Shown: positions 6,389 through 62,864, numbered from the stretch's first letter. The stretch: DNA of 64,000 bases from Escherichia coli (GCF_017348835.2 NZ_CP071375.1), one strand, 5' to 3'. The notes: generated from the letters alone by a model not told the origin. Made by a program: numbers and translations.

Positions 6389-7267
6389 ATGAGCAAAAAG
6401 CAGAGTTCCACCCCACACGATGCGCTGTTCAAACTCTTTTTACGCCAACCGGACACGGCACGCGATTTTCTTGCGTTTCATTTACCGGCACCCATTCACG
6501 CGCTCTGTGATATGAAAACCCTCAAGCTGGAGTCGAGCAGCTTTATTGATGACGATCTGCGTGAAAGCTATTCCGACGTGCTGTGGTCGGTGAAAACGGA
6601 ACAAGGACCAGGATACATCTATTGTCTGATTGAACATCAAAGCACCTCAAACAAACTGATCGCATTTCGCATGATGCGCTACGCCATTGCCGCAATGCAA
6701 AACCACCTGGATGCCGGACACAAAACGTTGCCGATGGTAGTGCCATTGTTGTTTTATCACGGTATTGAAAGCTCCTATCCCTATTCGCTGTGTTGGCTGG
6801 ATTGTTTCGCCGATCCCAACCTGGCAAGGCAGCTTTATGCCTCTGCATTTCCGCTGATTGATGTCACCGTCATGCCTGATGATGAAATCATGCAGCACCG
6901 ACGCATGGCGCTGCTGGAGTTAATTCAAAAACATATTCGTCAACGCGACCTGATGGGGCTGGTAGAGCAAATGGCCTGCTTATTAAGTAGTGGATACGCT
7001 AATGACAGACAAATCAAAGGGCTGTTTAATTACATCTTGCAAACCGGCGATGCGGTACGTTTTAACGATTTTATCGACGGCGTTGCCGAACGTTCACCGA
7101 AACACAAGGAGAGTTTAATGACTATTGCGGAAAGATTGCGGCAGGAGGGGTTTCAGAAAGGTATACGTGCTATTGCCAAAACCATGCTGGATGCCGGAGT
7201 CCCTCTTGAGGACGTTCTGCGATTTACCGGGCTGTCAGAGGAAGAATTGGCTGCGGCGAACCAGTAG
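6389..7267 (+). CDS. rpnA: Rpn-family recombination-promoting nuclease / transposase-like protein (YhgA)
   Basis: 292-aa ORF at the expected position after feoC; matches recollection of YhgA. Confidence 0.8.
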
Positions 7268-7283
7268 ACACTATCCCCTGCTT

Positions 7284-7329
7284 AAGTGCTACTTTATGCT
7301 ATCTTGCATGTAACACAAAGTAGCACTTA
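7284..7329. promoter_or_regulatory. 13-bp perfect inverted repeat (taagtgctacttt / aaagtagcactta); candidate operator for the downstream toxin-antitoxin pair, or yhgA terminator
   Basis: Arms at 7284-7296 and 7317-7329 separated by 20 bp; sits 10 bp upstream of the antitoxin start codon. Confidence 0.45.
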
Positions 7330-7338
7330 GGAACTGAT

Positions 7339-7608
7339 ATGCAGACAGTGAAATTACGGCAACAAGGAGGAGCCATGATCGTTACTATCCCACGAGATCT
7401 TGCCACCGATCTTGGCTAGTCACCGGGCACAGAGCTTACCGTGGAGAAAAAGGGCGATAGCGTTAATTTACGCGCAACCGGGCACAAACCGCGTGGGCGT
7501 CTTACCGTCGCGCAGTTGTTGAGCCAGATCGATGAAAGCGAAATTACGCAGCTAAATCAGTCCACAGAAGGATGGGCTGAAGGGAAAAAAGGTAATGAAG
7601 CATGGTAA
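7339..7608 (+). pseudogene. PemI/MazE/ChpS-like (AbrB/SpoVT fold) antitoxin interrupted by an in-frame TAG at 7417-7419
   Basis: Hand translation MQTVKLRQQGGAMIVTIPRDLATDLG*SPGTELTVEKKGDSVNLRATGHKPRGRLTVAQLLSQIDESEITQLNQSTEGWAEGKKGNEAW; SD agga upstream of ATG 7339; 3' end overlaps toxin start by 7 nt. Confidence 0.7.
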
Positions 7609-7970
7609 AGGCACGGACGCCACATCGTGGTGAGATCTGGTATTTTAACCCTGATCCGGTTGCCGGGCATGAACTTCGGGGTCCACATCATTGCATTGTG
7701 GTAACGGACAAAAAACTCAACAATGTTTTAAAAGTTGCTATGTGCTGCCCGATTACAACAGAGGCAAATGCAGCACGTTCCACAGGGGTGACGGTGAACG
7801 TCCTCCCCCATGATACGCAAACCGGTAACCTGCATGGCGTTGTGCTCTGTCACCAGCTAAAAGCTGTCGATCTTATTGCCCGTGGCGCTAAATTTCATAC
7901 CGTTGCCGATGAAGCATTGATTAGTGAGGTGATCGGTAAACTGGTGAATTTAATCGACCCACAACAGTAG
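7602..7970 (+). CDS. PemK/MazF/ChpB-family endoribonuclease toxin
   Basis: 122 aa; RGEIWYFNPDPVAGHELRGPHHCIVV...CCPITT...LHGVVLCHQLKAVDLIAR parallels MazF/ChpBK/PemK; no counterpart at this position in my recollection of K-12. Confidence 0.8.
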   Translation: MVKARTPHRGEIWYFNPDPVAGHELRGPHHCIVVTDKKLNNVLKVAMCCPITTEANAARSTGVTVNVLPHDTQTGNLHGVVLCHQLKAVDLIARGAKFHTVADEALISEVIGKLVNLIDPQQ

Positions 7971-7984
7971 CCCTGACTTATCAC

Positions 7985-16924: not shown

Positions 16925-19636
<2,712 letters not shown>

Positions 19637-19696
19637 GTTTGTATAGCGTTTTTATGTACACTCTTTATACTGTATATAAAATCGCACTACAGGCTC

Positions 19697-19981
19697 ATGA
19701 ATATGAAACCGGAAAGCAAAGAAGCGCCAATCAATATCAGAGCGAAAGCCTCACAGCGTGACCTGATTGATATGGCAGCGAATCTGGTCGCAAAATCGCG
19801 CACTGATTTTATGCTGGATGCCGCATGCCGTGAAGCGCAAGACATCTTATTAGATCAACGACTATTCATCGTTGATGACGAGCAATACGATGCGTTTCTG
19901 GCTGCCCTGGACGCCCCCATCACTGCTGAGCGTCAGGCCAAAATTAACGCATTGATGAATCGTAAATCGCCATGGGAATAA
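19697..19981 (+). CDS. DUF1778-type antitoxin (TacA/AtaR-like)
   Basis: 94 aa; ...INIRAKASQRDLIDMAANLVAKSRTDFMLDAA...KSPWE; overlaps downstream GNAT gene by 10 nt. Confidence 0.75.
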   Translation: MNMKPESKEAPINIRAKASQRDLIDMAANLVAKSRTDFMLDAACREAQDILLDQRLFIVDDEQYDAFLAALDAPITAERQAKINALMNRKSPWE

Positions 19982-20457
19982 CGGCTCCTACTCCCCTAAC
20001 GTCTGAACATAATCTGGCTGACTTTTGCTGTTCCGATCACGGGATGAATGAATGGCTAAAAAAGAAAGCGTTAAAAAATCACAGCTCCGGTCTGTCTCGT
20101 GTTTACGTTATCTGTATTGCCAATACCCGCCAGGTAATCGGCTATTACTGCCTTTCTACAGGCAGTATTCAACGTAATTTGGCTCCTGGAGCCATGCGAC
20201 GTAATGCTCCCGAATCGTTGCCTGTTGTCGTATTAGGCAGACTGGCAATTGATCAAGCCTGGGCAGGTAAAGGGTTGGGCGTCGCATTGTTGAAAGATGC
20301 AGTCTATCGCACAATGTCCATAGCTCAACAGGTAGGGGTTCGTGCGCTCATTGTTCATGCCTTAGACGATTCAGTACGCAATTTCTATCTGAAGTATGCC
20401 TTTGTACCTTCACCATTCCAGTCACTTACCTTACTGTATCCCATTACTCTGGAGTAA
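19972..20457 (+). CDS. GNAT acetyltransferase toxin (TacT/AtaT/ItaT-like)
   Basis: 161 aa; acetyl-CoA binding motif AWAGKGLGVALL; paired with the DUF1778 gene; no counterpart here in my recollection of K-12. Confidence 0.75.
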   Translation: MGITAPTPLTSEHNLADFCCSDHGMNEWLKKKALKNHSSGLSRVYVICIANTRQVIGYYCLSTGSIQRNLAPGAMRRNAPESLPVVVLGRLAIDQAWAGKGLGVALLKDAVYRTMSIAQQVGVRALIVHALDDSVRNFYLKYAFVPSPFQSLTLLYPITLE

Positions 20458-20506
20458 TTTACCTCTACCGGATAGTCACACTGATGAGTCTGATCCGGCA
20501 GGGATT

Positions 20507-21538
<1,032 letters not shown>

Positions 21539-22766
21539 TTATCCTTTTACGCACACCACCTGACGTAGGGTGTAGATAACTTCCACCAGATCGCTTTGTG
21601 CCGCCATCACCGCATCAATATCTTTATACGCCATCGGGATTTCGTCGATCACTTCGGCATCTTTACGGCATTCCACATGCGCGGTGGCACGAATTTGGTC
21701 TTCCACGCTGAACAGTTTTTTCGCTTTAGTTCGGCTCATTACCCGCCCGGCACCGTGGCTGCACGAACAGAACGACTCTTCATTTCCCAGTCCACGAACG
21801 ATAAAGCTTTTTGCCCCCATCGAACCGGGAATAATTCCATATTGACCAGCACGCGCAGACACCGCGCCTTTACGCGTCACGTAGATCTCTTCACCAAAGT
21901 GCTGTTCTTTTTGCACATAGTTGTGGTGACAGTTGATCTCTTCCATCGCCAGCGTTTGTGGCTGTCTGACCGTTTTCTGCGTAATGCTCTGCAACGCCGT
22001 TACCACGTTTTCCATCATCGCATCGCGGTTAAGGCTGGCGAAAAGCTGCGCCCAGGCCACGGCTCTTAGGTAATCATCAAAGTATTCCGTACCTTCCATA
22101 AAGTACGCCAGATCACGCGACGGCAACGTCTCAAGTTGGTCCTGCATCTCTATTTTGCGCCAGATCGATAAAGTAAGTCCCGATGGCATTACCAATTCCG
22201 CGTGAACCGGAGTGCAGCATAATCCACACCTGGTCCGACTCATCAAGGCAGATTTCAATAAAGTGGTTACCCGTTCCCAGCGTTCCCAGGTGTTTATAGT
22301 TGTTAGTGTTAAGGAAACGCGGATATTTTTGCGTTAACCACTGATAACCGGCTTCCAGCTCAGCCCATTTCGCATCGACGTTAACAGGCGGATTTTCCCA
22401 TGCACCTTTATCACGTTTACAACGTCCGGTAGTACGCCCGTGCGGCACCGCAGTTTCAATCGCCTGACGCAGCTCCGCCAGGTTTTCCGGCAGGTCAGCC
22501 GCCGTTAAAGCGGTACGTAGTGCGTTCATTCCACAGCCAATATCCACGCCCACCGCCGCCGGAATAATCGCCCCTTTGGTCGGGATCACGCTACCAATGG
22601 TGGAACCTTTACCCAGGTGTACATCAGGCATTACCGCAATATGTTTGAAAATAAACGGCATCTTCGCCGTATTAATAAGTTGCTGACGCGCATCGGCTTC
22701 TACCGGCACGCCTTTGGTCCACATTTTTACCGGGGCATTTTCAGTGGTCAGTAATTCGTAATTCAT
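21539..22766 (-). pseudogene. rtcB: RNA ligase RtcB, frameshifted
   Basis: Two overlapping minus-strand ORFs (22131..22766, RtcB N-terminus ending ...IDLAQ then 7 out-of-frame codons; 21539..22258, continuing in another frame from ...IEMQDQLETLPSRDLAYF to ...VVCVKG); frame switch at the T4 run at 22153-22156. Confidence 0.8.
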
Positions 22767-28267: not shown

Positions 28268-28365
28268 GCCTGATGCGCTACGCTTATCAGGCCTACGTGG
28301 TTTATGCAATATATTGAATTTGCATGATTTTGTAGGCCTGAGAAGGCGTTCACGCCGCATCAGGC
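28268..28365. repeat. BIME-like pair of REP elements downstream of glpD
   Basis: gcctgatgcgctacgcttatcaggcctac (28268-28296) and gtaggcctgagaaggcgttcacgccgcatcaggc (28332-28365). Confidence 0.65.
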
Positions 28366-28417: not shown

Positions 28418-29020
28418 TTACCGTAAAGCCCACGCCATCATACCCAACGTAACAAAACTCAGGCACGTTCCCCACTCACTCCACTTCCGTATCTGGCTTC
28501 TATTTTTGCTACGCCACTGGCAATAATATCCCAACGCAAAACCAAGCTGTGCGCTTATTGGACCGATAAAATCCGTCCACGGCTGAGGCCAAAATGGCGA
28601 AAAATTCAGGGGTAGCCAGACAACAAGCAGAAAGAAATTGCGGATACTTTCCAGCAACGCAATTTTCGCTGGCGCGATGTAAAAAATGATATTCCAGAGG
28701 ATCAACCATAAATAGACCGGTGCGAATACCAACCAACAATGGAGCCTGCTTTTCAATTCAGATTGAGTTCTACGAGTAAATTGCCAACCGACACAACATA
28801 TTACACAGAAAAAAAGCGCATATTCAGCCGATAACCAAAGTTGTAATTGCAGAAGTGAAATACGCCTGATCATGAGCGAGATTGAGAACAGCATTTCCCC
28901 CAGAAAACTCAGCGTGATAATACAAGCAGCCAGTGCAACCACCGTCGGCCACACCAACAACGGTACAATAACAAAGCCGAGAAATAACGGATAAATATAA
29001 AGTCTGATTATATTCATCAT
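28418..29020 (-). CDS. Small polytopic membrane protein, function unknown
   Basis: 200 aa, hydrophobic throughout (5-6 predicted TM segments); start overlaps the stop of the upstream gene (TAATG). Confidence 0.6.
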   Translation of the reverse strand: MMNIIRLYIYPLFLGFVIVPLLVWPTVVALAACIITLSFLGEMLFSISLMIRRISLLQLQLWLSAEYALFFCVICCVGWQFTRRTQSELKSRLHCWLVFAPVYLWLILWNIIFYIAPAKIALLESIRNFFLLVVWLPLNFSPFWPQPWTDFIGPISAQLGFALGYYCQWRSKNRSQIRKWSEWGTCLSFVTLGMMAWALR

Positions 29021-30552
29021 TATTGTCCTGATGATTCGGGGGATGCTTCATACAGCGGCACATACCCCACATCCTCTACCAACTGTTGCCCCTGCGGACT
29101 TAAAAACCAGTCAACAAATTTCTGCGTTTCCGGCGTGGCATTTTCACGCGTCACCATAAATGCATCGACGATGTACGCATATTTGCCGTTGCGAATGTTT
29201 TCCGCCGTCGGTGTAATATCGTTAATCGCTAGCAATTTTATATTTTTATCAGCATTCATTTGCGTCGCGTAATAGCGGAAGGTATAGCCTATTGCGTTGT
29301 TTGTATTACGATATTCGGCAACGACTTTAATCATTCCCTCCATTACGCTTGCCACTTCGGTTTCCTGCGGCGAGATCATACGGACATTTTTCATGACCTG
29401 TGATTGCATCACCGTCTGGCTGCCAGAGTCTTCCGGGCGTTGCCAGGTCTGGATCTCCTGATCGTTACCGTCAACAGTACGCCAGTTGGTAATTGCACCA
29501 CTGAAAATGTCACGCACCTGTTGTTCAGTCAGAGAATTAACCGGATTATCCGCATTGACGATGAAAACGAATGCTTCACGGGCAAATGGCGTGTATAGCA
29601 AAGTGACGCCCGATTCCTCTGCGCGTTTTTTCTGCCCACCGGAGGGTTGCGCCACAAAAATAATATCGGCATCACCTTTAACAATCCGGTTATATGCATC
29701 GGGGGTACGAGAGTTCTCCAGATATTCCCAGATGTGGAAATCTTCCGGTATAACGCTCAACGCATAAAAGGCAGAGGCATAAATTGGGTACGCCGCCGTA
29801 GCACCATCGAGTCGCGGCCAGTTTTGCGTAAACTGAATTTGCGGTTTACCACGCAGTGGTGTCAGTTGATTATTGAGTTTATCGGGTCGCCAGGCCCAGG
29901 TATCAATATTTTCACGGACACCGACGCCGGGATTAAGCTGTTTATATAAATAAGCCTGGTAACCGGCGACAAAACCAAGCATGAGAAGGATAAACAAGAG
30001 GGAATTACGGCAACGTAACCCGGACGTGCCCGTTAAAAGATGTCTGGTCGGCCAACCGTACCCCAGCGAAAAACTGATATGCGCGCCAACGGGTATAATG
30101 ACTATCCACCAGTACTCACCACCAACTAATGAGACTAACAAAACACCCAGCCAGGGAAGCATAAGATCAGCCAACCAACCCGATCCCATCTGGCGAAATT
30201 GATAATCTGCCAGATGCAGCGCGATTATCCAGCCAATCAGGGTTAATAGTGCGGGTAAGAGAAAAAAGCATTGTCGCCAGGCGGCTATTTCTCTTTTTTC
30301 TGGTGCACTATCGCCCGCCCATACTCGCCCCGAGAAAAATAGCATTATCGCACCCAGCGCCAACATAAAAATGTTAAGCAGAAGGTAAATTGTTGGCGTG
30401 AAGAGTAAATTGCAAACTTCAAGAATGGCGGCAAGCCCGCCCCCCAGCATAGCAACAACCGCTGCCAAAAATTGCGTCAGTATGGGGAGGCCGAAAAAAG
30501 TCATTACCAGCGAGGACAAAATCCATTTTCTGTTTTGCATTATTCTTTCCAT
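29020..30552 (-). CDS. Polytopic membrane domain fused to a PstS-like (phosphate-binding, PBP type 2) periplasmic domain
   Basis: 510 aa; N-terminal ~200 aa hydrophobic; C-terminal region has PstS-like motifs LDGATAAYPIY, RPEDSGSQTVM, NAIGYTFRYYA, KFVDWFLSPQG; likely the intact form of what K-12 keeps as the yzgL remnant. Confidence 0.65.
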   Translation of the reverse strand: MERIMQNRKWILSSLVMTFFGLPILTQFLAAVVAMLGGGLAAILEVCNLLFTPTIYLLLNIFMLALGAIMLFFSGRVWAGDSAPEKREIAAWRQCFFLLPALLTLIGWIIALHLADYQFRQMGSGWLADLMLPWLGVLLVSLVGGEYWWIVIIPVGAHISFSLGYGWPTRHLLTGTSGLRCRNSLLFILLMLGFVAGYQAYLYKQLNPGVGVRENIDTWAWRPDKLNNQLTPLRGKPQIQFTQNWPRLDGATAAYPIYASAFYALSVIPEDFHIWEYLENSRTPDAYNRIVKGDADIIFVAQPSGGQKKRAEESGVTLLYTPFAREAFVFIVNADNPVNSLTEQQVRDIFSGAITNWRTVDGNDQEIQTWQRPEDSGSQTVMQSQVMKNVRMISPQETEVASVMEGMIKVVAEYRNTNNAIGYTFRYYATQMNADKNIKLLAINDITPTAENIRNGKYAYIVDAFMVTRENATPETQKFVDWFLSPQGQQLVEDVGYVPLYEASPESSGQ

Positions 30553-50881: not shown

Positions 50882-50976
50882 AAAAAAAAAGCCAGCACCC
50901 GGCTGGCTAAGTAATACTGGAAGCAATGTGAGCAATGTCGTGCTTTCAGGTTCTCCGCGAGGGTCTTCCTGATCGC
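50882..50976 (-). ncRNA. ryhB: Fur-repressed small RNA RyhB
   Basis: Minus strand reads GCGATCAGGAAGACCCTCGCGGAGAACCTGAAAGCACGACATTGCTCACATTGCTTCCAGTATTACTTAGCCAGCCGGGTGCTGGCTTTTTTTTT, matching RyhB including the terminator hairpin and U-run. Confidence 0.9.
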
Positions 50977-60822: not shown

Positions 60823-61590
60823 TTATGCCTCACCTAAATAGGCACGGATCACGTCCGGGTTATTACGGATTTGCTCCGGCGTACCGTTTGCCAGCGGCGT
60901 CCCCTGATTGACCACGTAAATTCGGTCCGAAATTCCCATCACCAGCTTCATATCGTGTTCAATCAACAAGATAGTGGTGTTGTGATGATTGCGCAGTTCG
61001 GCAATCAGCTCATCCAGCTCTTTCGTTTCTTTCGGGTTAAGACCTGCCGCAGGTTCGTCGAGCATTAAAATCTCCGGCTGCGTCACCATGCAGCGGGCGA
61101 TCTCCAGACGGCGCTGGTCACCGTAGGCCAGGTTACTCGCCTGACGGTTGGCGTGTTCCAGCAAACCAATGCGCTCAAGCCAGGTGGCGGCGCGGTCGAG
61201 CGCTTCACTTTGGGCGCGACGGAAAGACGGCGTTTTCAACAGGCCTGAGAACAGCCCGGTTTTCAGTTGCTGATGCTGCGCCACCAGCAGGTTTTCAATT
61301 ACTGTCATTTCACGGAACAGACGCACATGCTGGAAGGTACGCACCACGCCCATGCGGGCGATTTGCTGCCCCGGCAAACCCTCCAGATGCTGATCGCGCA
61401 GTAAAATAGTGCCGCCGGTGGGTTTGTAGAATCCGGTCAGGCAGTTGAAGACCGTCGTTTTTCCGGCACCGTTAGGGCCGATTAACGAGACGATCTCCTG
61501 CGGGTACAGTTCGAGATTGACGTTGTTCACCGCCAGCAGGCCGCCGAAGCGCATCATCAGGCCGTTAACAGATAATAATGGCTGACTCAT
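60823..61590 (-). CDS. livG: Branched-chain amino acid ABC transporter ATPase
   Basis: 255 aa; Walker [10 protein letters not shown]. Confidence 0.9.
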
Positions 61591-62864
61591 GCCTGCTCTC
61601 CTTTCGCTGCGCCGTTTTTCAGCTTCAGTTGCGGGCGCGTCATGGGCAGCAAGCCCTGCGGACGCCAGATCATCATCAGCACCATCAAACCACCGAGCAT
61701 TAACATGCTGTATTCGTTGAAATCACGCATCAACTCGCGCGATACCACCAGCAGAACAGCCGCCAGAATCACTGCAAATTGCGAGCCCATACCGCCGAGC
61801 ACCACTATCGCCAGTACAAAGGCTGATTCGGCAAAGGTGAAGGATTCCGGGCTGACAAAGCCCTGGCGCGCAGCAAACAGCGTTCCGGCAAAACCGGCAA
61901 ACGCGGCGCTGATGGTAAAGGCAGTCAGCTTGATACGACGCGGGCTTAAGCCCAGCGAACGGCAGGCGATCTCGTCTTCACGCAACGCTTCCCACGCACG
62001 CCCCAGCGGCATCCGCAGCAGGCGGTTAATGACAAACAGGCTTAACACCACCAGCAGCAACGCCACCAGGTAGAGGAAGATGACGCGATCGGAGGGATCG
62101 TATTTCAGGCCAAAGAAATTACTGAACGTGTCCCAGCCGCCTTCGCGGGCGGTACGGCTGAACTCAAGGCCGAAGAAAGTCGGTTTCGGGATCTGACTGA
62201 TACCGTTCGGGCCGCCGGTAATTTCGGTGTTATTGAGCAGCAATATGCGCACAATTTCGCCGAAACCGAGGGTAACGATCGCCAGATAGTCACCGCGCAG
62301 ACGCAGCACCGGAAAGCCGAGCAGGAAGCCCGCCGCCGCCGCCATTAACCCGGCAATCGGCAGACAGGTCCAGAAGCCCAAACCGTAATAGTGATTGAGC
62401 AGCGCAAAAGTGTAAGCGCCGATGGCGTAAAAGCCGCCGTACCCCAGCACCAGCAGACCAGAAAGACCAACAACCACGTTCAGCCCGAGTCCGAGGATAA
62501 TGTAGATCATGGTCAGGGTGGCGATATCCACCGTCCCGCGTGAGACCATAAACGGCCACGCCACCGCAAGCACCAGCAGCGCCACGAGAAACAGCTTTTG
62601 CTTCACCGTGGAGCCATCAATGGCGGGCAGAATAAACTTCGGTCCGGAAACGCTTTTCAACCCTTTCTGGAAAGCCGGTCGCAAAAGCTGGAAGAAAAAG
62701 ACCACCGCCGTGCCGATAAACACCCACTGCCAACGGATGTCTGAAGCCGTGTCGACCACCAGTTTGGTGCCATCCAGCTCCAGTTGTACGCCCATAAAGA
62801 CGCCCGCCAGGACAAAAAACATCGCGGCAGAGAGCAACGCCATTGCAATATGCATCGGTTTCAT
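61587..62864 (-). CDS. livM: Branched-chain amino acid ABC transporter permease
   Basis: 425 aa polytopic. Confidence 0.9.

What the first reader, a model, noticed from the sequence alone, without database searches (positions are those of the whole stretch)
19637..20506. DUF1778 antitoxin plus GNAT toxin pair (AtaRT/TacAT-type) inserted between malT and rtcA
malT is followed directly by rtcA in K-12 as I recall. Here a 94-aa DUF1778/RHH-type antitoxin and a 161-aa GNAT acetyltransferase overlap by 10 nt, the classic arrangement of tRNA-acetylating toxin systems such as AtaT-AtaR, ItaT-ItaR and TacT-TacA. The window therefore carries two unrelated type II toxin-antitoxin cassettes in otherwise core intergenic spaces.
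Basis: partly seen in the sequence, partly recalled or inferred. Interest (0 to 1): 0.55.

Follow-up and report, generated by a model that had tools for sequence, protein, structure and literature searches.

The report
Known AtaR2-AtaT2 toxin-antitoxin pair

Summary
Two overlapping genes, 19697/19703..19981 (94/92 aa) and 19972..20457 (161 aa, 10-nt overlap), lie between malT and the convergent rtcA. The interpretation also holds, and the pair can be named exactly.

- **Identity:** The 161-aa protein is 161/161 identical to PDB 7F37 chain B and to ECs_4262 of E. coli O157:H7 Sakai. The antitoxin differs from 7F37 chain C / ECs_4261 by one conservative residue (V59L). In Sakai, ECs_4261-4262 lie between malT and rtcA.
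- **Published function:** These tags are the published ataRT2 module (Ovchinnikov et al. 2020, PMC7470980). AtaT2 acetylates Gly-tRNAGly, stalls ribosomes at Gly codons and needs Tyr139. The glycine-free antitoxin AtaR2 neutralises it.
- **Origin:** The module is an 889-bp, low-GC (46%) segment that replaces 49 bp of the K-12-type junction and rewrites the last codons of rtcA. It occurs in 394 of 5,426 complete E. coli genomes, always single-copy, chromosomal and at this site. Homologues with 64-73% identical toxins sit on enterobacterial plasmids, and the homology includes the upstream control region.

Verdict: a real feature, correctly read and already known, so low interest. The physiological role, autoregulation and any link to rtc remain open.

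The parts
19641..20529 (.). Lineage-specific 889-bp segment (the ataRT2 cassette plus its 3' tail) that replaces 49 bp of the K-12-type malT-rtcA junction
   Evidence: Alignments to junctions without the cassette. Homology to empty-site genomes stops at 19640 and resumes at 20530. GC of the intergenic interval 19637-20506 is 46%, against 54% for malT and 59% for rtcA.
19638..19696 (+). Upstream control region: promoter-like site (TGTACA 19655-19660, 16-nt spacer, TAAAAT 19677-19682) and short palindromes (TGTACA 19655-19660; TATAC-T-GTATA 19666-19676; GTATA 19641-19645). Putative operator for the ribbon-helix-helix (RHH) antitoxin; this is inferred.
   Evidence: Promoter scan (not above chance on its own, 3 sites found against 1.6 +/- 1.4 expected). 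Inverted repeats. Blocks TTTGTATAGCGTTT and TATA.CTGTATATA are conserved in Citrobacter and Klebsiella plasmid cassettes that are only 68-72% identical overall.
DUF1778/TacA domain, contains no glycine.
   Evidence: 91/92 identical to PDB 7F37_C; PF08681, E 3e-19; RefSeq start; single difference V59L against O157; start conserved in plasmid homologues; 0 Gly.
19972..20457 (+). ataT2 toxin gene, 161 aa, a GNAT aminoacyl-tRNA N-acetyltransferase. Tyr139 and the G99-K-G-L-G103 loop are present.
   Evidence: 161/161 identical to PDB 7F37_B; 44% identical to TacT; GNAT Pfam families; identical to O157:H7 WP_001301452; Y139; = ECs_4262.
20465..20501 (.). Hairpin (arms CTACCGGAT / ATCCGGCAG) between the convergent ataT2 and rtcA genes. 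Possible bidirectional terminator. It takes the place of the K-12 GCCGGAT...ATCCGGC hairpin.
   Evidence: The minus-strand fold is -20.3 kcal/mol (z -3.8) and the plus-strand fold is -16.7 kcal/mol (z -1.3). The simple terminator scan did not call it, so its function is inferred.
20507..20529 (-). Altered 3' end of rtcA. The last codons are supplied by the inserted segment (...[10 protein letters not shown], 342 aa, instead of the K-12-type ...TRVSIE*, 338 aa).
   Evidence: translations of the window, O157, K-12-like and TW10573 rtcA. (annotated lengths).

Best explanation
The locus is the chromosomal type II toxin-antitoxin module ataR2-ataT2 (AtaRT2), first described in E. coli O157:H7 Sakai as ECs4261-ECs4262.

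How it works:
- The two genes are co-transcribed with the antitoxin first and are translationally coupled through a 10-nt overlap.
- AtaT2 is a dimeric GNAT enzyme. [quoted passage not shown]
- The blocked aminoacyl-tRNA cannot take part in elongation, so ribosomes stall at Gly codons and growth stops without a ppGpp response.
- AtaR2 binds the toxin in a T2:R4 hetero-hexamer and neutralises it.
- AtaR2 contains no glycine, so it can still be made while the toxin is active. This favours recovery.

What is shown and what is inferred:
- Shown here: gene anatomy, sequence identity, domains, catalytic residues, the locus, the insertion boundaries, the distribution and the plasmid relatives.
- Shown in the literature for the identical toxin: toxicity, dependence on Y139 and acetyl-CoA, rescue by AtaR2, complex stoichiometry, the Gly-tRNAGly target in vitro and in vivo, and the absence of a ppGpp response.
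- Inferred: transcription from the conserved region at 19638-19696; autorepression there by the RHH domain of AtaR2 in complex with AtaT2, as in AtaRT, TacAT and KacAT; release of the toxin by antitoxin loss; acquisition from a plasmid-type cassette; and full function of the V59 antitoxin allele.
For: - **Identity:** The toxin is 161/161 identical to PDB 7F37_B and to the O157:H7 protein. The antitoxin is 91/92 identical to 7F37_C.
- **Locus:** Sakai ECs_4261/ECs_4262 lie between malT (ECs_4260) and rtcA (ECs_4263). PMC7470980 names ECs4261-ECs4262 as ataRT2.
- **Published function (PMC7470980):** Y139A abolishes toxicity. Co-expression of AtaR2 rescues growth. The complex runs at 99 kDa (T2:R4). 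Inhibition of translation depends on acetyl-CoA. Ribo-seq shows pausing at all four Gly codons, and there is no ppGpp response. The glycyl moiety is acetylated, and AtaR2 is glycine-free.
- **Independent LC/MS:** AtaT2 acetylates Gly-tRNAGly exclusively in vivo and belongs to clade D of the GNAT toxins.
- **In this window:** Y139 is present. The KGLG loop aligns with that of TacT. The antitoxin has 0 Gly in 92 aa. Pfam gives TacA1 at 3e-19 and GNAT families at 1e-4.
- **Accessory, intact and fixed in place:** 394 of 5,426 genomes carry it, one copy each and all chromosomal. Both genes are intact even in the most divergent carrier listed (98.3% identity).
- **Plasmid relatives:** Homologous cassettes with a conserved upstream region lie on plasmids, for example between traD and traT of a Citrobacter IncF plasmid.
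Against: Nothing contradicts the identification. The caveats are these:
- The antitoxin allele here (V59; the same protein accession is annotated in PE164 and D8) is not the one tested experimentally (L59). The change is conservative, and the strains carrying it are viable with an intact toxin.
- The promoter-like hit is no better than chance by the scan's own control, and no simple intrinsic terminator was called.
- Autoregulation and the trigger for toxin release have not been shown for AtaRT2 in the papers I could read.
- The physiological role of the chromosomal module is stated to be unclear.
- I could not read the paper behind PDB 7F37. The depositors name its chains only as 'GNAT family N-acetyltransferase' and 'DUF1778 domain-containing protein'.
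Confidence: 0.95

Rival explanations
1. The pair is a conserved housekeeping acetyltransferase operon (for example a metabolic or protein N-acetyltransferase with a small regulator), not a toxin-antitoxin system.
For: GNAT is a very large and mostly non-toxic superfamily. The Pfam GNAT matches are weak (E 1e-4). The only NCBIfam hit is a generic GNAT equivalog at 16.7 bits.
Against: That NCBIfam hit is far below its 171-bit cut-off. The pair is absent from about 93% of complete E. coli genomes, including K-12-like strains. The identical protein is toxic, and its partner neutralises it. The partner carries the DUF1778/TacA antitoxin domain.
Confidence: 0.01
2. The module in this strain is an inactive or decaying remnant: toxin or antitoxin no longer functional, promoter lost, a fossil of an old insertion.
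For: Chromosomal TA modules often decay. The neighbouring rtcB is frameshifted in this strain. The antitoxin carries one substitution relative to the tested allele. The promoter scan is not significant.
Against: Both ORFs are full length. The toxin is identical to the active protein and keeps Y139. The substitution is conservative (V for L). The upstream region is identical to that of O157 and is conserved in plasmid cassettes. Both genes are annotated as intact in every carrier listed or fetched.
Confidence: 0.03
3. This rival concerns the biological role, not the biochemistry. The chromosomal copy persists mainly as an anti-addiction module against related plasmid-borne GNAT toxins, or purely as a selfish addictive element, rather than as a stress, persistence or translation-tuning regulator.
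For: Close homologues (toxin 64-73% and antitoxin 77-83% identical) sit on conjugative or mobilizable enterobacterial plasmids. An anti-addiction role for AtaRT and AtaRT2 has been proposed in the literature, as cited in PMC7470980. The cassette is low in GC and looks horizontally acquired.
Against: The authors of PMC7470980 consider it redundant to keep a toxin solely for anti-addiction. Cross-neutralisation was reported for AtaR against a plasmid AtaT, not for AtaR2, as far as I could read. PMC9431474 reports low similarity between clades in the residues involved in neutralisation.
Confidence: 0.25
4. This rival also concerns the role. The module acts as an abortive-infection anti-phage defence system.
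For: Several type II TA systems, including tRNA-targeting ones, defend against phage (general knowledge). The cassette is an accessory, horizontally acquired island-like insert.
Against: Neither protein matches any PADLOC defence model. No neighbouring defence genes are present, since the flanks are core malT and rtcA. The papers I read give no phage phenotype.
Confidence: 0.05

Closest known systems
AtaR2-AtaT2 (AtaRT2) of E. coli O157:H7 Sakai, ECs4261-ECs4262 (Ovchinnikov et al. 2020, NAR, PMC7470980); complex structure PDB 7F37
   Same: The toxin is identical (161/161) and the antitoxin is 91/92 identical. The chromosomal site (malT-rtcA), the 10-nt overlap, the upstream region, Tyr139 and the glycine-free antitoxin are all the same.
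   Different: There is one conservative antitoxin substitution (V59 here, L in Sakai) and six single-nucleotide differences over 1,151 bp. The host strain is different: the window is 100% identical to pig isolate PE164, in which rtcB is frameshifted.
TacA-TacT of Salmonella Typhimurium (PDB 5FVJ, 7F36, 7AK8), with TacAT2 and TacAT3
   Same: Same family, and per PMC9177977 the same clade D of Gly-tRNAGly-specific GNAT toxins. The toxin is 44% identical over 153 aa (E 7e-44). The antitoxin matches DUF1778/TacA chains, best 46% identical to 7ZG6_A. The KGLG loop and the catalytic-Tyr position align; the TacT crystal sequences have F where Y139 aligns.
   Different: It is a paralogous module in another genus and, by my recollection, at other loci. 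The sequence is only about 44-46% identical. The persister phenotypes described for TacT in macrophages (my recollection) have not been shown for AtaT2.
Plasmid-borne homologues: K. pneumoniae KacAT3-type cassettes, and Citrobacter and Enterobacter IncF plasmid cassettes
   Same: Same gene order and overlap. Toxins are 64-73% and antitoxins 77-83% identical, and the upstream control motifs are conserved. PMC9431474 reports 66% identity between AtaT2 and KacT3.
   Different: They are on plasmids, for example between traD and traT, so they are plausibly addiction modules. They diverge at the toxin C-terminus, and the Citrobacter antitoxin has one Gly.
AtaR-AtaT of E. coli O157:H7 (ECs4308-ECs4307; PDB 6AJM, 6GTP)
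   Same: Same architecture and chemistry: a DUF1778 antitoxin, a GNAT toxin that acetylates aminoacyl-tRNA, and a T2:R4 complex.
   Different: It is a distant paralogue (E about 5e-20; 29% identity according to PMC7470980). The target was first reported as Met-tRNAfMet and was later shown to be broader, with a bias to Gly-tRNAGly in vivo. It is a clade A toxin under different locus tags, and no copy was found in this window.
ItaR-ItaT of E. coli HS (PDB 7BYY) and KacA-KacT of K. pneumoniae (PDB 5XUN, 5ZGN)
   Same: Same GNAT/RHH TA superfamily.
   Different: ItaT is barely detectable by sequence (E 0.012) and prefers Ile/Leu-tRNA. KacT scores E 3e-17 to 7e-18 and groups with AtaT, not AtaT2.

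Membership tests
GNAT / DUF1778(RHH) type II toxin-antitoxin family (TacAT / AtaRT / KacAT type) | Two-gene operon, antitoxin upstream of toxin, with the genes adjacent or overlapping | tested here: met
   ORFs 19703(19697)..19981 and 19972..20457 are on the same strand with a 10-nt overlap.
GNAT / DUF1778(RHH) type II toxin-antitoxin family (TacAT / AtaRT / KacAT type) | Antitoxin carries the DUF1778/TacA domain (N-terminal RHH, C-terminal toxin-binding region) | tested here: met
   Pfam TacA1 PF08681, E 3.1e-19, residues 12-87. It matches solved TacA, AtaR and KacA chains.
GNAT / DUF1778(RHH) type II toxin-antitoxin family (TacAT / AtaRT / KacAT type) | Toxin has a GNAT fold with an acetyl-CoA-binding loop | tested here: met
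   Pfam Acetyltransf_7, Acetyltransf_1 and Acetyltransf_10 (E 1e-4 to 1e-3). The sequence is identical to a solved GNAT chain, 7F37_B. G99-K-G-L-G103 aligns with the same loop in TacT.
GNAT / DUF1778(RHH) type II toxin-antitoxin family (TacAT / AtaRT / KacAT type) | Conserved catalytic tyrosine (general acid) | tested here: met
   Residue 139 is Tyr. Y139A abolishes toxicity of the identical protein.
GNAT / DUF1778(RHH) type II toxin-antitoxin family (TacAT / AtaRT / KacAT type) | Toxin arrests growth and the cognate antitoxin neutralises it by direct binding | not testable with these tools
   Shown experimentally for the identical toxin with the L59 antitoxin allele (PMC7470980). It is inferred for the V59 allele.
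GNAT / DUF1778(RHH) type II toxin-antitoxin family (TacAT / AtaRT / KacAT type) | Toxin N-acetylates the aminoacyl moiety of charged tRNA | not testable with these tools
   Shown for AtaT2 in vitro (MALDI) and in vivo (Ribo-seq, LC/MS). The target is Gly-tRNAGly.
GNAT / DUF1778(RHH) type II toxin-antitoxin family (TacAT / AtaRT / KacAT type) | Autorepression of the operon by the antitoxin or the complex binding an upstream operator | tested here: inconclusive
   Palindromes and a promoter-like site lie in 19638-19696, and the motifs are conserved in diverged plasmid cassettes. No binding data were found, and the promoter scan is not above chance.
AtaRT2 orthologue group (ECs4261-ECs4262) | Near-identity to the characterised AtaT2 and AtaR2 sequences | tested here: met
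   161/161 and 91/92 identical.
AtaRT2 orthologue group (ECs4261-ECs4262) | Same chromosomal position (malT-rtcA junction) | tested here: met
   The Sakai record has malT ECs_4260, ECs_4261, ECs_4262 and rtcA ECs_4263 in that order. All 394 carriers have a single chromosomal copy, and every carrier listed or fetched has it at this junction.
AtaRT2 orthologue group (ECs4261-ECs4262) | Glycine-free antitoxin | tested here: met
   0 Gly in 92 aa, while the toxin has 11 Gly in 161 aa. The same feature is noted in PMC7470980.
AtaRT (ECs4308-ECs4307) / ItaRT orthologue groups | Close sequence similarity to AtaT or ItaT | tested here: not met
   AtaT chains score only E about 5e-20 and ItaT scores E 0.012. 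PMC7470980 gives 29.2% identity to AtaT. It belongs to the same superfamily but is a different module.
Known anti-phage defence systems (PADLOC-DB v2) | Match to a defence-system protein model | tested here: not met
   No family at E <= 0.01 for either protein.
Housekeeping GNAT acetyltransferase (NCBIfam PRK10314 equivalog) | Score at or above the curated cut-off | tested here: not met
   16.7 bits against a cut-off of 171.

The most novel reading that the evidence does not exclude
The position of ataRT2 may not be neutral. The cassette is transcribed convergently into the 3' end of the rtcBA RNA-repair operon, it replaced the shared terminator, and it rewrote the last codons of RtcA (...SIE* to ...MITKLTD*). 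A tRNA-poisoning toxin and the Rtc RNA-repair and stress system could therefore be functionally or regulatorily coupled in carrier lineages. One route would be transcriptional interference. Another would be Rtc responding to AtaT2-induced translation stress. The evidence gathered here does not exclude this, but nothing supports it beyond adjacency. RtcB is a pseudogene in this very strain, and acetylated Gly-tRNA is not, to my knowledge, an RtcA or RtcB substrate.
Probability: 0.03. Interest if true: 0.5.

Novelty: already known. Interest (0 to 1): 0.1.

Why it matters
Biologically, AtaT2 is a clean example of a toxin that silences one amino acid's tRNA pool. Its presence marks this chromosome as belonging to the roughly 7% of complete E. 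coli genomes that carry the module, including O157:H7, O55:H7 and some O145 and O78 strains. For the scan, the value is calibration. A reader working from raw sequence identified the gene pair, its family and its accessory status correctly. The tool-based check shows that the pair has already been characterised biochemically and structurally, so it should not be promoted as a discovery. The small new details are the exact insertion boundaries, the remodelled RtcA C-terminus and the control region shared with plasmid cassettes. They are descriptive.

Tried and rejected
- **Paper behind PDB 7F37:** A full-text search for '7F37' returned only unrelated papers. The likely source, Yashiro et al. 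2021, Cell Rep 37:110130 (cited in PMC9177977), is not held. Attributing 7F37 to that paper is my recollection only.
- **NCBIfam:** No family matched the antitoxin, and the toxin gave only a sub-threshold generic GNAT hit.
- **PADLOC:** No hits, so the defence-system reading is unsupported.
- **Second GNAT or DUF1778 module in the window (AtaRT):** tblastn gave only chance hits. The best antitoxin-like hit, at 61549-61677, lies inside liv transporter genes.
- **Promoter and terminator scans:** The promoter-like sites are no more frequent than in shuffled sequence, and no intrinsic terminator was called after ataT2. The hairpin at 20465-20501 is significantly stable only on the minus (rtcA) strand.
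- **Rfam over the whole window:** Nothing in or near the cassette.
- **Not run, because the protein is identical to a characterised one with a solved structure:** large protein-database searches, structure prediction, and metagenome or genome-collection scans.

Full report
**1. Observation**

- malT occupies 16931..19636 on the plus strand, and rtcA occupies 20507..21538 on the minus strand.
- Between them lie two plus-strand ORFs: 19697..19981 (94 aa) and 19972..20457 (161 aa). They overlap by 10 nt.
- One refinement concerns the antitoxin start. RefSeq annotations, the crystallised construct and the plasmid homologues all begin at the second in-frame ATG, 19703. That gives 92 aa.

**2. What the proteins are**

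The small protein matches Pfam TacA1/DUF1778 (PF08681, E 3.1e-19). The larger one matches three GNAT families weakly (E 1e-4 to 1e-3).

The decisive result came from the search of solved structures.
- The 161-aa protein is identical over all 161 residues to PDB 7F37 chain B (E 9.5e-107).
- The small protein is 91/92 identical to 7F37 chain C.
- The next-best toxin hits are Salmonella TacT (5FVJ, 7F36, 7AK8; E about 7e-44; 44% identity).
- Two further TacT-like acetyltransferase chains follow (7AK7 at 4e-42; 6G96 at 1e-20), then AtaT (about 5e-20), KacT (about 1e-17) and, barely, ItaT (0.012).

**3. Identity with a characterised system**

- The O157:H7 proteins at the same position are identical to the window's toxin. 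They differ from the antitoxin only at V59L, in 94-aa numbering.
- The Sakai reference record places ECs_4261 (279 nt) and ECs_4262 (486 nt) between malT (ECs_4260) and rtcA (ECs_4263).
- Ovchinnikov et al. 2020 (PMC7470980) name exactly these locus tags as the ataRT2 module.

That paper reports the following for AtaT2:
- A 30-minute induction kills BW25113 cells. Y139A, or co-expression of AtaR2, abolishes the effect.
- The two proteins co-purify as a 99-kDa complex consistent with T2:R4.
- In vitro translation is blocked only when acetyl-CoA is present.
- Ribo-seq shows pausing at all four Gly codons, without ppGpp accumulation.

An independent LC/MS study (PMC9177977) found that AtaT2 acetylates Gly-tRNAGly exclusively in vivo. 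It places AtaT2 in clade D of the GNAT toxins, the glycine-specific clade that also holds the three Salmonella TacT toxins and GmvT.

In the window, Tyr139 is present, the G99-K-G-L-G103 loop aligns with that of TacT, and the antitoxin contains no glycine. The authors link this last property to continued antitoxin synthesis during intoxication.

**4. Anatomy of the insertion**

- Alignment with genomes that lack the pair shows that similarity ends four bases after the malT stop codon (19640) and resumes at 20530.
- An 889-bp segment (19641-20529) therefore replaces 49 bp of the K-12-type junction. Those 49 bp include the GCCGGAT...ATCCGGC hairpin.
- The segment extends into rtcA. RtcA ends ...[10 protein letters not shown] (342 aa) in carriers and ...TRVSIE (338 aa) in non-carriers.
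- The gap between malT and rtcA (19637-20506), which holds the cassette, is 46% GC, against 54% for malT and 59% for rtcA.
- A hairpin at 20465-20501 separates the convergent ataT2 and rtcA. It is significantly stable only as the minus-strand transcript, and the simple terminator scan did not call it.

**5. Control region**

The 60 bp upstream of ataR2 hold these elements:
- a promoter-like pair, TGTACA, a 16-nt spacer, then TAAAAT;
- short palindromes: TGTACA, and TATAC-T-GTATA lying between the two hexamers;
- a further GTATA.

By the scan's own control the promoter hit is not above chance. However, the blocks TTTGTATAGCGTTT and TATA.CTGTATATA are conserved in Citrobacter and Klebsiella plasmid cassettes whose overall DNA identity is only 68-72%. 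That argues for constraint. It also shows that the control region came in with the cassette, because the homology begins immediately after the malT stop. Assigning these motifs as the operator of the RHH antitoxin is an inference by analogy with AtaRT, TacAT and KacAT. I found no binding data for AtaR2.

**6. Distribution**

- The cassette alone matches 394 of 5,426 complete E. coli genomes. Each has one copy, all are chromosomal, and none is on a plasmid. Identity is at least 99% in 369 genomes and 95-99% in 25.
- With flanks included, the same 394 genomes cover the full query, and nearly all the others match only the malT and rtcA ends.
- Listed carriers include O157:H7, O55:H7, O145 and O78 strains, the pig isolate PE164 (100% identical to the window) and an environmental strain.
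- The most divergent carrier listed (D8, 98.3%) has both genes intact at the same junction.
- More distant homologues (toxin 64-73% and antitoxin 77-83% identical) occur on about 1,075 plasmid records, mostly Klebsiella and Yersinia. In one Citrobacter farmeri IncF plasmid the cassette lies between traD and traT.
- The Klebsiella form corresponds to what PMC9431474 calls KacT3, which that paper reports as 66% identical to AtaT2.
- The most economical reading is acquisition of a plasmid-type addiction cassette into the malT-rtcA junction of an ancestor. That is an inference.

**7. Rivals**

- A housekeeping acetyltransferase operon is excluded by the accessory distribution, the sub-threshold NCBIfam score (16.7 against 171 bits) and the published toxicity.
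- A decayed remnant is unlikely, because both ORFs are intact and the toxin is identical to the active enzyme.
- The open question is the biological role. An anti-addiction role has been proposed, and the AtaT2 authors doubt it.
- A phage-defence role has no support here (no PADLOC hit).
- Persistence or translation tuning is speculative.

**8. Comparison and novelty**

This is not a new member or a variant. It is the characterised AtaRT2 module itself, with one conservative antitoxin substitution. All the sequence-testable defining features of the GNAT/DUF1778 family, and of the AtaRT2 orthologue group, were met. The biochemical features cannot be tested here, but they are published for the identical toxin. 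Novelty: already known. Interest: low (0.1).

The least ordinary reading still open is a functional or regulatory link with the adjacent rtc RNA-repair operon, whose 3' end the cassette remodelled. I give that about 3%.

**9. Noticed along the way**

- rtcB is frameshifted in this window.
- A 717-bp insert between yhgA and bioH encodes a MazF/ChpB-like toxin preceded by a small overlapping ORF.
- Rfam finds RyhB and ES036 elsewhere in the window.
- The window lacks about 1 kb relative to Sakai in the ABC-transporter island between glpD and glgP.

Noticed in passing
window 21539-22766 (minus strand): rtcB, the RNA ligase gene next to rtcA, is split into two overlapping ORFs (21539..22258 and 22131..22766). 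The identical region in strain PE164 is annotated 'frameshifted', whereas O157:H7 Sakai and Z1816 have an intact 408-aa rtcB. The RNA-repair operon beside the toxin module is therefore probably defective in this strain.
   Followed up: partly
window 7267-7983: A 717-bp segment between yhgA and bioH is absent from O157:H7 Sakai. It encodes a 122-aa protein (7602..7970) that matches MazF/ChpB toxin models below their cut-offs (best E 2.7e-26). A small ORF (7441..7608) precedes it and overlaps it by 7 nt.
   Followed up: partly
window 20507-20529 (minus strand): Carriers of the cassette have an RtcA with a different and longer C-terminus (...[10 protein letters not shown], 342 aa) than non-carriers (...TRVSIE, 338 aa), because the inserted segment supplies the last codons. 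The consequence for RtcA activity is unknown.
   Followed up: partly
window 29020-30552, compared with L004 27412-29938: Relative to Sakai, the window lacks about 1 kb in the three-gene island between glpD and glgP. The blastn pieces overlap by 154 bp at window 29050-29203. One 510-aa ORF stands where Sakai has an ABC ATP-binding gene (ECs_4271) followed by a membrane-protein gene (ECs_4272).
   Followed up: no
window 50883-50947 (-) and 28289-28331 (-): Rfam matches above the gathering score: the sRNA RyhB (83 bits) and the sRNA ES036/CssrF (43.6 bits). Both are expected for E. coli and unrelated to the finding.
   Followed up: no
L003 (strain TW10573) 1001-1311: This genome has a malT 3' end identical to the window's in the part aligned and encodes the same MalT protein as O157 strain Z1816, yet it lacks the cassette. 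The empty and occupied states therefore coexist on very similar flanks. That fits recombination-mediated gain or loss rather than strict vertical inheritance.
   Followed up: no
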